Source: Nannocystales bacterium (GTDB lineage: Bacteria; Myxococcota_A; Polyangia; Nannocystales; Nannocystaceae). Taken from it: DNA of 64,000 nt. The notes under the pieces were generated by a model. That model was not told the origin of the DNA, ran no database searches, and saw only the letters and a program-made list of their open reading frames with translations. Positions 36,287-39,084 of this stretch are shown here, one piece after another (position 1 is the stretch's first letter; every line of letters begins with the position of its first letter). Made by a program: the position numbers and the translations under genes. The DNA is taken from the NCBI GenBank assembly GCA_050633305.1, contig JBOEGF010000009.1, positions 228,573-292,572 on the forward strand, written 5' to 3'.

Positions 36287-36829
36287 ATGGCTCAGGGCGA
36301 AGACAATGATGGTGCGGCGGATGGTTCCCGCCGTGGGTTCTTGACGATCGGGTTCTCGGCGGTAAGCGTTGGGCTTGCGGGGGCGACTCTCGGCCCAGCG
36401 GCTGCGATGTTGGTTCACCCGCTGGGCAATGCGACGACCAGCGGCGCCGACGAGTTCGTGCCGGTGGGTGGTCGGACTGGGTTCGGGGAAGACCCGGTCA
36501 AGGTCGATATCTACGCGGATCGGGTGGATGCCTGGAACCGTGTCGTTCAAGTGAAGGTGGGGTCCGCGTGGGTCTTGGCTCAAGGGGACGAACTCGTGGC
36601 GTTCTCGACGGTATGTCCGCACCTCGGGTGCGGCATCGACTACGTGCCCGAGAAGAAGAAGTTCCTCTGCGCGTGCCACAACTCGTGGTTCACGATCGAG
36701 GGCGGCGTCGAAGAAGGGCCGTCACCGCGGGCGATGGACACGCTGGAAACCCAGGTCGATGAGAGCCTGGTTCAGATCCGCTACCAGCGGTTCAAGCAGG
36801 GCATCGAAGGCAAGGAGCCGATCGTATGA
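36287..36829 (+). CDS. qcrA: Rieske 2Fe-2S subunit of a Rieske/cytochrome b complex
   Basis: Tat motif SRRGFL plus TM helix, CPHLGC, CACHNSWF, GPSPR. Confidence 0.93.
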   Translation: MAQGEDNDGAADGSRRGFLTIGFSAVSVGLAGATLGPAAAMLVHPLGNATTSGADEFVPVGGRTGFGEDPVKVDIYADRVDAWNRVVQVKVGSAWVLAQGDELVAFSTVCPHLGCGIDYVPEKKKFLCACHNSWFTIEGGVEEGPSPRAMDTLETQVDESLVQIRYQRFKQGIEGKEPIV

Positions 36830-39084
36830 GCATGCTCGACAACTTCGTCGACGCGGTCGAAGACCGCTTGGGCCTCATCTCCAGCTGGGAGATGTACCGG
36901 GACCGGCTCGTGCACGGCGGCGTTCGCCTTCGCCACGTGTTCCCCGCGATCATCACGTACCTGTTCGTACAGCAGGCGGTGCTCGGCATCGTGCTGGCGA
37001 CCTACTACAGCCCGTCTGCGACGGATGCTTGGGCGTCGACCGCCTACATCCAAGACCAGGTCACGATGGGTTGGTTCGTCCGCGGGCTCCACTACCACGG
37101 CACCTCGGTGTTCATCGTCGTGCTCGGTCTGTGGCTGACACAGATGGTGTTGCACCGCGTTTACCAAGCACCGCGCGAGGTCACGTGGTGGGCGGGCATC
37201 GGGATGCTTGGCGTTGGACTTGCGCTGGGTCTGACCGGCAACCCGCTCCCGTGGGACCAAGCGGGCTACTGGGGCATTCAGGTCGAGCTTTCGATCGCCG
37301 AGCAAACCCCGGGCGGGGAGATCATTCGAACCCTGGTTCAAGGCGGTTCGGATGCGGGCAACCTCAGCATTCTGCGTCTGTATGCGCTGCATGTATTCGT
37401 GTTGCCGGCGGCGTTTGTAGGACTGATCTGGCTGGTCAGTCGACAGCGTGCGCAGCACGGACTGCCCGCGCCGGAGAGCATGTCCGACGCAGAGGCGCAC
37501 AAGACGACCCAGCGCTACTTCCCCGCGCAGGCGTTCCTCGACATTCTGGCGATGGCGGCCGTTGCAGGTTTGATCGTTGCACTGACGATCAGCACGCACG
37601 GGGCGGAGCTGCTCGGCCCCGCGGACCCGACGGAGAACTTCCAGGCGCGGCCCGAGTGGTACTTCCTGTTTCTCTACAAGCTGCGGATGTTCTTTGAAGG
37701 GCCGATGGAGCCGGTGGCCACAATGGTCATCCCCGGTGCCGCGGTCACGTTCTTGCTCGTCGCGCCCTTCGTCGACAAGGTTGCGGGCAAGGCGGGTCGG
37801 TTCCTCATCTTGGGCGGGATGGGCGTGCTCATGACTGGAACGGTCGGCCTCACGGTCTATGGCTTGCAGTCCGACGCTGCGGATGAGGAGTTCCAGAAGT
37901 CCGTCGCTGCCGCCGAGGCTTCGGCGGAAGAGGCTCGCGCATACGCCAAGATGGGCGTGGTCCCGCTGGGCGGACCTGCGGTGTTCTTCAACGACCCCGA
38001 ATACCGGACCAAGATGCTCTACAAGGAGCACTGCCAGGGGTGTCACGCACTCGGTGGCGTTGGCGGAGACGAGGGCCCTTCGCTCGAGGACTACTCATCC
38101 CGCGCCTGGGTCTCGGCGCTCGTCCGGAACGCGGCGGACCCGCGGTTCTTCGGCAACACGAAGATGAGCGACGAGATGGAGGCCTATCCCGAAGCGGACC
38201 TGCCCGCCGAGCAGTTCGAGCCGTTGGTCGAGTACCTCATGCAACTGCAGGGCGACCAAGTCGTCGATGAGGCGCTCGCGAAGAAAGGGGCTGAGCTCTG
38301 GGAGGACGAACTCGAGTGCAACGCCTGCCACGAGGTCGAGCCCGGTGAAGAAGGGGACGGCCCCAACCTGGACAGGCACGGCTCTCAGGCATGGGTTGCG
38401 CGTGTGATTCGAGACAGTGCACAGGGCGACCTGTTCGGGGAGTACGCGGCCATGCCGAAGTTCGCGGACAAACTCTCGGACGCGGACATCAACGCGCTCG
38501 CCGCCTTTGTCGTCAAGCAGCGCGGGCAAGAGCCGGTCGAGGTGACCCCGACGGCCCAAGCGGAGGCGGTCGAGCCGAGCCCCGAGCCAGAGCCAGAGCC
38601 AGAGCCAGCCGAAGCGGCGCTCGCGGCTGAAGCGGTGGGGGATGCGGAGCCCGCTCCAGACGGAGAGGGCACGGCCGTCGAGGAGGAGCCAGCCCCGGAT
38701 GCGGCGGAACCCGTCGAGGAGCCTGAGGCGGTGCCTGCTGTGGCCGCCGAGCCCGAGCCCGAGCCCGAGCCCGAGCCCGAGCCGAAGAAGAAGAAGGCCA
38801 AACCCGCGCCGAAGCCGAAAGCGAAGCCGAAGCAGCCAGCGACGGACAAAGCGAACGGGCGCAAGGTCTACATGTCCAAGTGCAAGTCGTGCCACGGCAC
38901 CGACGGCAAGGGCGAGACCAAGTTCGGCAAGAAGCTGGAGTTGGCGTCGATCACTCCGATGGGCTTCTCTCGCATCAAGAAGGCCGTGACCAAGGGCATG
39001 CCAGGGACGAAGATGAAGTCGTATAGCAAGAAGCTCAGCGCGCAGGAGATCGCCGACGTCTCCGCCTTTGCGAAGTCGCTGTAG
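36826..39084 (+). CDS. qcrB: Cytochrome b (b + subunit IV) fused to three c-type heme domains; heme bH ligands apparently absent
   Basis: GWFVRGLH, APRE..WW, TGNPLPWDQ, LYALHV, RPEWYFLF. Heme motifs CQGCH, CNACH, CKSCH. ATGA overlap with the Rieske gene. Confidence 0.92.
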   Translation: MSMLDNFVDAVEDRLGLISSWEMYRDRLVHGGVRLRHVFPAIITYLFVQQAVLGIVLATYYSPSATDAWASTAYIQDQVTMGWFVRGLHYHGTSVFIVVLGLWLTQMVLHRVYQAPREVTWWAGIGMLGVGLALGLTGNPLPWDQAGYWGIQVELSIAEQTPGGEIIRTLVQGGSDAGNLSILRLYALHVFVLPAAFVGLIWLVSRQRAQHGLPAPESMSDAEAHKTTQRYFPAQAFLDILAMAAVAGLIVALTISTHGAELLGPADPTENFQARPEWYFLFLYKLRMFFEGPMEPVATMVIPGAAVTFLLVAPFVDKVAGKAGRFLILGGMGVLMTGTVGLTVYGLQSDAADEEFQKSVAAAEASAEEARAYAKMGVVPLGGPAVFFNDPEYRTKMLYKEHCQGCHALGGVGGDEGPSLEDYSSRAWVSALVRNAADPRFFGNTKMSDEMEAYPEADLPAEQFEPLVEYLMQLQGDQVVDEALAKKGAELWEDELECNACHEVEPGEEGDGPNLDRHGSQAWVARVIRDSAQGDLFGEYAAMPKFADKLSDADINALAAFVVKQRGQEPVEVTPTAQAEAVEPSPEPEPEPEPAEAALAAEAVGDAEPAPDGEGTAVEEEPAPDAAEPVEEPEAVPAVAAEPEPEPEPEPEPKKKKAKPAPKPKAKPKQPATDKANGRKVYMSKCKSCHGTDGKGETKFGKKLELASITPMGFSRIKKAVTKGMPGTKMKSYSKKLSAQEIADVSAFAKSL
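38749..38784 (+). repeat. (GAGCCC)5-GAGCCG hexamer repeat encoding (EP)6
   Basis: Read directly from the sequence. A related (GAGCCA)4 run lies near 38584-38607. Confidence 0.9.

What the first reader, a model, noticed from the sequence alone, without database searches (positions are those of the whole stretch)
36826..37700. Cytochrome b that appears to have lost heme bH: a Rieske/cyt b complex without a canonical Q-cycle
Seen: the helix-B His (H89, codon 37090) and helix-D His (H189, codon 37390) are present. The partner positions carry Trp at +14 in helix B (W103, TGG 37132) and Leu/Val at +14/+15 in helix D (L203/V204). In helix A the first heme-packing Gly position is Pro (P40), while the second, 14 residues later, is retained (G54). 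The Qo motif PEWY (37651-37662) and the Rieske boxes are intact. Established: the first His of each pair ligates heme bL, the second ligates heme bH, and the Q-cycle needs bL-to-bH transfer. Inference: three coordinated changes, including a bulky cavity-filling Trp, in an otherwise intact and translationally coupled gene suggest selected loss of bH rather than decay. The result would be a one-b-heme quinol:cytochrome c oxidoreductase with a different fate for the second electron, or one half of a heterodimer. This is the best candidate for an undescribed system in the window.
Basis: partly seen in the sequence, partly recalled or inferred. Interest (0 to 1): 0.85.

Follow-up and report, generated by a model that had tools for sequence, protein, structure and literature searches.

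The report
Respiratory complex missing its second heme
One branch of myxobacteria carries, as the only complex III-type cytochrome b found in its genomes, a version in which the amino acids that hold the second heme are replaced and the quinol pocket has new conserved residues, so it likely passes electrons from quinol to cytochrome c without the energy-saving Q-cycle that this enzyme family is known for.

Summary
Observation confirmed. ORF 36826-39084 (752 aa) is a fused cytochrome b/subunit IV plus three c-hemes, downstream of an intact Rieske gene. The bL ligands H89/H189 are present; the bH ligand positions are W103 and V204, and the bH-packing Gly is P40. This is not an error or recent decay: 25 of 62 Nannocystaceae-family genomes lack the helix-D ligand, those placed form one clade in cyt b and RpoB trees, each gave one cyt b match, and dN/dS within the genus is 0.05-0.16. 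No substitute His is conserved and no canonical partner was found, so the heterodimer idea fails. New here: the clade fixed new residues at the quinol-oxidation site (Tyr147-equivalent to Asn, plus Glu154 and Arg287), and bH-ligand loss recurs 5-6 times in this subfamily, each time with Glu or Arg at 154; one distant myxobacterium converged on the same Asn/Glu/Arg trio. Alternative complex III is present in parallel. Best reading (0.55): a bL-only menaquinol:cytochrome c oxidoreductase sending both electrons to the Rieske/c chain, the natural counterpart of engineered bH knockouts. Heme content and activity are untested. New variant of a known kind; a cultured carrier exists.

The parts
36287..36829 (+). 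Rieske [2Fe-2S] protein, 180 aa, twin-Arg-like N-terminal anchor; both boxes intact; Ser133/Phe135 ('SF' type); Trp134 is aromatic in 25 of 25 ligand-less genomes against 4 of 38 loci that keep His204
   Evidence: (PF00355)
36826..37875 (+). Cytochrome b domain (b6-like four-helix part fused to subunit IV-like part, helices A-H), residues 1-350 of the 752-aa ORF
37090..37092 (+). H89, heme bL ligand (helix B), kept in 89 of 89 clade sequences
37390..37392 (+). H189, heme bL ligand (helix D), kept in 89 of 89
36943..36945 (+). P40, replaces the bH-packing Gly of helix A (Gly in 40 of 40 four-His sisters; Pro/Phe/Ala/Leu in the clade)
37132..37134 (+). W103, replaces the helix-B bH ligand (b6 His100)
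37435..37437 (+). V204, replaces the helix-D bH ligand (b6 His202)
37240..37242 (+). N139, replaces the Qo-site Tyr (Rhodobacter Y147, bovine Y131); Asn in 89 of 89 clade sequences, Tyr in 40 of 40 four-His sisters
37285..37287 (+). E154 on the cd1 helix (Rhodobacter I162, a quinone-tail contact); Glu in 89 of 89, Ala 31 or Arg 9 of 40 in four-His sisters
37651..37662 (+). Qo motif PEWY (276-279)
37684..37686 (+). R287, 8 residues after PEWY-Tyr (Rhodobacter position 305); Arg in 89 of 89, Leu/Val in 40 of 40 sisters
37540..37542 (+). D239 at the start of helix E, at the position of the Qi-site Asp of bc1 (equivalence recalled, not from a call); kept as Asp 84 or Asn 5 of 89
37876..38520 (+). 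Fused diheme cytochrome c domain (CxxCH at 403 and 498 with downstream Met motifs), shared by ligand-less and four-His family members
38521..39084 (+). Glu/Pro/Lys-rich linker and a third class I cytochrome c domain (CxxCH at 686), seen in 3 of 7 genomes of the genus only; likely a tethered electron shuttle

Best explanation
This is a Rieske/cytochrome b complex whose cytochrome b keeps the ligands of heme bL, lacks those of heme bH and has new conserved residues at the quinol-oxidation site; it likely binds only heme bL and likely oxidises menaquinol by sending both electrons, one at a time, to the Rieske cluster and on to its fused c-hemes, with no electron crossing the membrane. Heme bL would act as a temporary electron store: it takes the second electron of one quinol and hands it back to the semiquinone of the next turnover (the 'ping-pong' short circuit shown for engineered bH-less b6f), or the semiquinone waits for the re-oxidised Rieske. 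The net reaction would release 2 H+ outside per quinol instead of the Q-cycle's 4 out/2 in. The Tyr-to-Asn change and the Glu154/Arg287 pair are inferred to lift the gate that normally suppresses this short circuit. Alternative complex III with its caa3-type oxidase, a cbb3 oxidase and a bd oxidase are encoded elsewhere in the genome, which would make the lost coupling affordable. Shown: ligand loss, its distribution, single copy, purifying selection, intact Rieske and c-heme motifs, the new invariant residues and their recurrence. Inferred: heme content, substrate, turnover, electron path, role of the new residues, reason for selection.
For: (1) 25 of 62 family genomes lack His204 (18 lack both ligands, 7 keep His103 only); 36 keep both; 1 lacks His103 only. 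(2) One clade: cyt b tree 100/99 with 35 trait columns removed (13 of 13 ligand-less rows); RpoB tree SH-aLRT 91 (11 of 11), so inheritance is vertical; stem length 0.27-0.38 in cyt b against 0.03 in RpoB. (3) H89, H189, G54, G138, R86 each kept in 89 of 89 non-redundant clade sequences; no conserved substitute His. (4) Of columns at least 90% conserved in 31 four-His Ala154 sisters, the clade keeps 0.47 on the inner (bH/Qi) side and 0.72 on the outer side; the second bH-packing Gly (124) is kept in 7 of 89 against 40 of 40. (5) dN/dS of G000 against six genus mates 0.05-0.16, outer side 0.01-0.08; ligand-less genera 0.15-0.36, four-His genera 0.09-0.34 (rough counting method). (6) N139, E154, Q273, R287, E295 each in 89 of 89. 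(7) Convergence: among 39 scorable non-family Myxococcota orthologues 4 lack at least one bH ligand, all 4 among the 11 with Glu154, 0 of the other 28; G302 lacks both ligands and has N139/E154/R287, and the AU test rejects joining it to the clade (p 0.0016); in a Planctomycetota-centred set 76 of 120 hits lack a ligand, 74 of those have Arg154, 0 of 44 four-His hits do, and both bL His are kept in 120 of 120. A tree without trait columns needs 6 changes of the loss label, 5 forced by well-supported branches. (8) ActD in 20 of 21 ligand-less family genomes searched and in all 4 other ligand-less Myxococcota; G000 has the ACIII-oxidase cluster, cbb3, bd and futalosine menaquinone genes. (9) Engineered b6f lacking bh turns over at about 5% of wild type by a bl/semiquinone ping-pong and supports growth (PMC3112540, parts 1-2 of 4 read); short circuits SC1-SC3 give 2 H+ out per quinol (PMC7908018 section 7.4.1).
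Against: No heme count, activity or expression data. [quoted passage not shown] Engineered bH-less bc1 does not support growth and overproduces reactive oxygen (PMC3112540; PMC7908018 passage). Glu/Arg154 is not sufficient for loss: 7 of 11 Glu154 Myxococcota, 9 of 40 four-His family members (Arg154) and L048-L051 keep all four His, and Tyr139 is also replaced in four-His Dissulfurispiraceae. The independent-pairs test of 154 against loss is not significant (8 pairs, about 4 concordant, 0 discordant, median p 0.125). Arg154 four-His lineages have drifted equally on both sides (0.78/0.80) and the loss lineages are long branches, so part of the link may be general acceleration. D239, P116-R117-E118, Y113, W121 and Q235 on the inner side stay conserved. 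ActD is equally common in four-His family genomes (32 of 37), so it permits but does not explain the loss. The AlphaFold model is least confident exactly in the cd1 helix and ef loop, and I had no coordinates, so no contact of E154 with R287 was measured.
Confidence: 0.55

Rival explanations
1. The Qo site no longer turns over quinol at a useful rate. The protein serves as a bL-stabilised membrane anchor for the Rieske and c-heme modules, or as a sensor of the quinone pool or of periplasmic redox state.
For: Tyr147-equivalent lost and charged residues placed at positions that are hydrophobic pocket residues in bc1; low model confidence around Qo; parallel quinol-oxidising routes exist.
Against: PEWY, W149, G/A150, Y/F284, LPWD, the bL propionate-side R86 and the Rieske ligands and disulfide stay invariant; outer-side dN/dS is as low as in four-His genera; the Planctomycetota lineage also keeps PEW and both bL His while deleting the inner-side segments.
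Confidence: 0.18
2. A transmembrane low-potential path survives in altered form: a heme with one His or Tyr ligand, or a quinone sitting in the vacated bH pocket, accepts the electron from bL, so a modified Q-cycle still runs.
For: Position 103 is always aromatic and is Tyr or His in about two thirds of the clade; D239 (84 Asp, 5 Asn of 89), the PRE motif, W121 and M243 (73 of 89) persist.
Against: G000 itself has Trp; both bH-packing Gly positions are filled in most members (position 40 in 89 of 89, position 124 in 82 of 89); no His, Cys or Lys is conserved on the inner side; the de loop and the FRRHGVTPP stretch are scrambled or shortened; the Planctomycetota form L054 lacks the whole segment before helix A.
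Confidence: 0.12
3. A redundant enzyme in slow decline: alternative complex III does the work, selection on the Rieske/cyt b complex is relaxed, the low-potential chain went first and the rest is on its way out.
For: ActD in 52 of 58 family genomes; only 48 of 401 phylum genomes have a close orthologue at E <= 1e-45; loss lineages are long branches.
Against: Open, full-length gene in 25 of 25 ligand-less genomes across six genera; dN/dS 0.05-0.16 in the genus; new invariant residues and their independent re-appearance in G302 are not what drift gives.
Confidence: 0.12
4. One half of a heterodimer with a canonical cytochrome b that supplies bH and the Qi site through bL-bL transfer.
For: Two Planctomycetota genomes with a ligand-less copy also hold four-His paralogues.
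Against: No second cyt b in G000 (92% complete) by three methods; one match in each of 25 ligand-less family genomes although the same search found 29-37% identical paralogues in G019 and G041; one Pfam match in each of G302, G303, G219, G229 and in the genome of L043.
Confidence: 0.03

Closest known systems
Rieske/cytochrome b (bc1/b6f) complexes, PEWY-cyt c clade of Kao and Hunte 2014 (PMC4122944, passages read); group A1 of Baymann et al. 2012, which lists Plesiocystis pacifica (PMC3509893, passages read)
   Same: Rieske gene followed by a long cyt b with PEWY and C-terminally fused class I cytochrome c; bc1 cyt b fold (TM-score 0.73-0.83); direct four-His orthologues in Nannocystis, Plesiocystis and Pseudenhygromyxa at about 50% identity.
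   Different: Both bH ligands and the packing Gly replaced; Qo Tyr replaced by Asn, Glu154/Arg287 added. Kao and Hunte removed sequences lacking any of the four His before analysis.
Engineered bH knockouts: Chlamydomonas b6f petB-H202Q/ftsH1 (QiKO) and Rhodobacter bc1 H212N (PMC3112540, parts 1-2 of 4 read)
   Same: bL and Qo kept, bH/Qi gone; residual quinol:acceptor turnover by bL-semiquinone short circuit.
   Different: Those are crippled mutants (about 5% turnover, oxygen-sensitive). Here the state is natural, old, under purifying selection and accompanied by fixed changes at Qo and on the Rieske head.
Cyanobacterial cyt b subfamily K (Dibrova et al. 2017, PMC5600118, section 8 part 1 read)
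   Same: Natural cyt b with a helix-2 His replaced and the bn-accommodating Gly of helix 1 absent; function and heme number unknown.
   Different: Subfamily K is a short extra copy beside a normal b6f, mostly without its own subunit IV, with Glu/Gln at the ligand position. The present gene is full-length, fused to c-hemes, paired with its Rieske gene and the only cyt b found.
Pyrobaculum cytochrome b (PMC4122944, passages read)
   Same: Genus-wide lack of the fourth His, read by the authors as loss of one b heme.
   Different: Archaeal, one ligand only, unrelated branch; no Qo remodelling described in the passages read.
Alternative complex III (ActA-F)
   Same: Same net reaction, quinol to cytochrome c, without a Q-cycle (family knowledge, recalled); co-occurs in these genomes.
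   Different: Unrelated proteins; no Rieske cluster, no cyt b fold.

Membership tests
Rieske/cytochrome b complex (structural family) | Cytochrome b fold with helices A-D plus subunit IV-like helices | tested here: met
   PF00033, PF13631, PF00032 above cut-off; AlphaFold model pLDDT 84.7; Foldseek top hits bc1 cyt b
Rieske/cytochrome b complex (structural family) | Adjacent Rieske protein with both cluster boxes and disulfide cysteines | tested here: met
   adjacent in all family loci mapped
Rieske/cytochrome b complex (structural family) | Qo motif P(E/D)WY | tested here: met
   PEWY 276-279; other Qo residues are changed
PEWY-cyt c clade | PEWY plus class I cytochrome c fused to the C-terminus of a long cyt b | tested here: met
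   nested among four-His family orthologues. The paper's own reference sequences were not placed in my trees
Canonical Q-cycle bc complex | Two His ligands of heme bL | tested here: met
   H89, H189; 89 of 89
Canonical Q-cycle bc complex | Two His ligands of heme bH and the packing glycines | tested here: not met
   W103, V204, P40; no conserved substitute
Canonical Q-cycle bc complex | Intact Qi site | tested here: inconclusive
   inner-side core columns 47% kept, but D239 and the PRE motif persist
Canonical Q-cycle bc complex | Two b hemes bound, electrogenic bifurcated turnover | not testable with these tools
   needs spectroscopy and proteoliposome assays
b6f / b6c-type complex with heme ci | CxGG cysteine and split cyt b/subunit IV | tested here: not met
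   V38 at the Cys position, single fused polypeptide
Cyanobacterial subfamily K | Short extra cyt b with Glu/Gln at the helix-2 ligand, beside a canonical copy | tested here: not met
   long, fused, Trp/Tyr/His at 103, single copy

The most novel reading that the evidence does not exclude
Evolution has repeatedly (at least five times, in Myxococcota and Planctomycetota) converted the Q-cycle enzyme into a one-heme, non-bifurcating quinol:cytochrome c oxidoreductase, by first placing a Glu/Arg charge in the Qo pocket and dropping the Qo Tyr so that the normally forbidden two-electron short circuit becomes fast and safe, and then discarding heme bH. The three Qo substitutions would mark the molecular gate that enforces bifurcation in all bc1/b6f complexes.
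Probability: 0.4. Interest if true: 0.92.

Novelty: new variant of a known kind. Interest (0 to 1): 0.8.

Why it matters
The four heme-ligating histidines are treated as invariable, to the point that a large survey filtered out sequences without them (PMC4122944), and how the Qo site suppresses short circuits is still called unknown in the 2021 review (PMC7908018 passage). A natural, selected, sole-copy enzyme without bH ligands, with a short list of convergent Qo substitutions, a cultured carrier (Paraliomyxa miuraensis SMH-27-4, L043) and cultured four-His sisters at about 50% identity, makes the gating question directly testable: purify both forms, and transplant N139/E154/R287 into a laboratory bH-less bc1. 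It also means genome annotations that count these genes as proton-translocating complex III are likely wrong for a large part of this family.

Tried and rejected
Sequencing error or recent pseudogene: rejected. Substitute His ligands: rejected. Second cyt b: none found. ACIII as the distinguishing factor: rejected, present in both groups (20 of 21 against 32 of 37); heme-copper oxidases likewise (57 of 58). Downstream UshA-like multiheme gene as a dedicated partner: not supported; adjacent in genera g1, g7, g10 but not g15 and present in 57 of 58 family genomes. 'Arg154 specifically precedes inner-side decay': not supported (equal drift on both sides); independent-pairs test underpowered. Complex prediction of cyt b(1-350) with the Rieske head, two hemes and a 2Fe-2S cluster: weak support, score 0.45 against best control 0.01, runs agree in at least 83% of contacts, partner pLDDT at least 84; the mark was reached by 116 of 157 solved complexes and 2 of 215 mismatches, but at 0.60 or under by only 18 of 157 and both mismatches; like complexes are solved, so this shows likeness only; no contacts or heme positions were returned. 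AlphaFold gave no coordinates I could measure. Promoter/terminator scan uninformative. ESM Atlas returned only generic cyt b clusters. The deep HMMER search of cluster representatives never ran, so the full range of ligand-less cyt b outside this subfamily is not surveyed. Earlier scan findings were not available. Literature: nine full-text searches ran; none listed a paper describing this clade. Dibrova et al. 2013 was not held and ten Brink et al. 2013 was seen only as a reference; either may mention ligand-less sequences. Supplements of PMC5600118 had no hit for five myxobacterial or Phycisphaera names; its tree figure and the Kao and Hunte supplements were not seen. The Danish Myxococcota preprint passages did not treat this complex. 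Rows dropped: L144, L145 (distant paralogues) from family counts; sequences over 92% identical collapsed (130 kept); G380 (1 of 41 non-family hits) not fetched and G293 truncated; 23 rows left out of the 44-row tree for run time (22 four-His, 1 truncated); G012, G017, G008, G031 had no RpoB match. In one search one locus (L016) was read in a wrong frame and was corrected.
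Full report
Observation. The window holds a Rieske gene (36287-36829) whose stop overlaps the start of a 752-aa ORF (36826-39084). 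The ORF is a cytochrome b with fused subunit IV part, a diheme c domain, a Glu/Pro/Lys-rich linker and a third c domain. Alignment to solved b6 chains puts H89 and H189 on the bL ligands, W103 on the helix-B bH ligand and P40 on the heme-packing Gly; four-His relatives have His at 103 and 204, fixing V204 as the helix-D position. A model from 75 clade sequences keeps all eight helices (pLDDT 84.7, weak at cd1 and the ef loop) and matches bc1 cyt b structures.

It is a clade trait. Named relatives place the genome in the Nannocystaceae (93% identical hit). Across 62 family genomes with a readable orthologue, 25 in six genera lack His204 (18 lack both ligands, 7 keep His103), 36 keep both, and G040 lacks His103 only. 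The ligand-less rows form one clade in the cyt b tree with the trait columns removed (100/99) and in an RpoB tree (SH-aLRT 91), with a cyt b stem of 0.27-0.38 against 0.03 for RpoB: one loss, a burst of change, then vertical inheritance. Paraliomyxa miuraensis SMH-27-4 (L043) is a cultured member; Nannocystis pusilla, Plesiocystis pacifica and Pseudenhygromyxa proteins (P0098, P0114, P0118) are four-His. Selection is purifying: dN/dS 0.05-0.16 for G000 against six genus mates, similar to four-His genera (simple counting, synonymous sites partly saturated).

No rescue in cis or trans. Among 89 non-redundant clade sequences the bL ligands, G54, G138 and R86 are invariant, while H37, H91, H110 and H211 occur in 54, 55, 16 and 42. 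Position 40 is never Gly and position 124, the second bH-packing Gly, is Gly in 7 of 89 against 40 of 40 sisters. Inner-side core columns are 47% kept, outer-side 72%. G000 (92% complete) has one cyt b by tblastn, Pfam and an unfiltered six-frame profile search, and each of the 25 ligand-less genomes gave one match.

The Qo site was rebuilt. Five positions became invariant in the clade: N139, E154, Q273, R287, E295 (89 of 89). By alignment end-points N139 is Rhodobacter Y147 and E154 is I162; the review names Y147 as needed for efficient Qo catalysis and I162 as a quinone-tail contact (PMC7908018 passages and section 7.3.3). R287 maps to Rhodobacter position 305, three residues after Y302; that this is a Leu lining the pocket is recalled, not from a call. 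The Rieske head changed too: the residue after the box-II Ser is aromatic in 25 of 25 ligand-less genomes and in 4 of 38 loci with His204. The Ser/Phe pair predicts about 200-230 mV by the rule in PMC3509893 (passage).

The same thing happened elsewhere. A phylum-wide search found close orthologues in 48 of 401 genomes. Of 39 scorable non-family ones, 4 lack at least one bH ligand; all 4 are among the 11 with Glu154 and none among the other 28. G302 lacks both ligands and has N139, E154 and R287; joining it to the Nannocystaceae clade is rejected (AU p 0.0016, trait columns removed; long branch, so read with care). A second large ligand-less clade surrounds two Planctomycetota loci: 76 of 120 hits lack a ligand, 74 of them have Arg154, 63 of those also lack Tyr139, none of 44 four-His hits has Arg154, and all 120 keep both bL His. 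A 44-row tree needs six changes of the loss label, five forced by well-supported branches. Against over-reading: Glu/Arg154 also occurs with four His (7 of 11; 9 of 40 in the family; L048-L051), the independent-pairs test has too few pairs (p 0.125), four-His Arg154 lineages drift on both sides equally, and Tyr139 is replaced in some four-His Nitrospirota-type sequences. The pattern fits 'Qo change permits loss', not 'Qo change means loss'.

Context. G000 encodes alternative complex III with an A-type oxidase (C7), a cbb3 oxidase (C21), a bd oxidase and futalosine menaquinone genes. ActD is in 20 of 21 ligand-less and 32 of 37 other family genomes, and in the four other ligand-less Myxococcota, each with one cyt b. 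The two Planctomycetota genomes instead hold further cyt b genes with four His; ActD was not found in them. So in every case examined a parallel quinol-oxidising route is encoded.

Mechanism. Without bH the electron on bL cannot cross the membrane (established for the family). Engineered b6f without bh still turns over, at about 5%, because reduced bl hands its electron back to the semiquinone of the next turnover; this supports growth but is oxygen-sensitive, and bc1 H212N has a similar small flux (PMC3112540). Such short circuits give 2 H+ out per quinol (PMC7908018). I infer that this enzyme has made that route its normal one, and that N139/E154/R287 re-tune semiquinone stability, proton exit or Rieske docking to make it fast and safe (0.55). 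Rivals: catalytically dead Qo with an anchor or sensor role (0.18), a hidden low-potential path through a non-canonical heme or a quinone in the old pocket (0.12; D239 and the PRE motif persist), slow decline beside ACIII (0.12), heterodimer (0.03). Why lower coupling would be selected is unexplained; a fast, proton-motive-force-insensitive outlet feeding the cbb3 oxidase or periplasmic c-type enzymes is a guess.

Comparison and novelty. It belongs to the Rieske/cyt b family, PEWY-cyt c type (PMC4122944), and fails the bH criterion of a Q-cycle enzyme. Natural cyt b lacking one bH ligand has been noted for Pyrobaculum and for the extra-copy cyanobacterial subfamily K, both without functional data. 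Nine literature searches listed no description of a sole-copy, doubly ligand-less, Rieske- and c-heme-coupled form or of the convergent Qo changes; two key 2013 reviews and several supplements could not be read. Verdict: real, new variant of a known kind, interest 0.8.

Noticed in passing
window 39138-40946 (+): 602-aa UshA-like protein with a C-terminal c554-like multiheme domain directly downstream; adjacent to the cyt b gene in genera g1, g7, g10 but not g15; its heme domain is found in 57 of 58 family genomes.
   Followed up: partly
window 38521-39084 (+): Third c-type domain on a roughly 110-aa Glu/Pro/Lys linker, present in 3 of 7 genomes of the genus only; looks like a recently added tethered shuttle.
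   Followed up: partly
L143 (G040:C257): Independent half-loss: Tyr at 103, His204 kept, scrambled helix-D end, Phe139 and Arg154; its genus mate G010 is canonical.
   Followed up: partly
L054:1723-3546 and P0121-P0129: Planctomycetota ligand-less form starts at helix A, lacking the whole N-terminal inner-side segment, and has PEWH-T instead of PEWY-F.
   Followed up: partly
L048, L050, L051, L230, L234, L235, L243: Kofleriaceae-type orthologues with Glu154 have lost the PEWY glutamate (PLWY, PQWY), mostly with four His; Glu154 may replace it as proton acceptor.
   Followed up: no
L138-L140, L142, L052-L058, L064: Other odd Qo motifs in four-His orthologues: PEWN (G043, G044, Dissulfurispiraceae with GGPLPW), PVWY (G008); G044 has two near-identical copies.
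   Followed up: no
window 33814-34968 and 34925-36202 (+): Two tandem paralogous Cys-rich lipoprotein-like genes without Pfam match just upstream of the Rieske gene; one copy in most genus mates.
   Followed up: no
window 31053-33773 (+): 906-aa protein with an Ion_trans domain and a long unassigned cytoplasmic part, conserved next to the locus in genera g1 and g7.
   Followed up: no
window 42540-45826 (-): TPR protein plus two DUF4331 genes stay near the Rieske/cyt b pair in genera g1 and g15, on different sides.
   Followed up: no
window 46190-46507 (+): 105-aa secreted-looking protein with one CxxCH motif and no Pfam match.
   Followed up: no
G000, 13 contigs: Sixteen matches to the diheme cytochrome c peroxidase/MauG family, a large pool of possible periplasmic electron sinks.
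   Followed up: no
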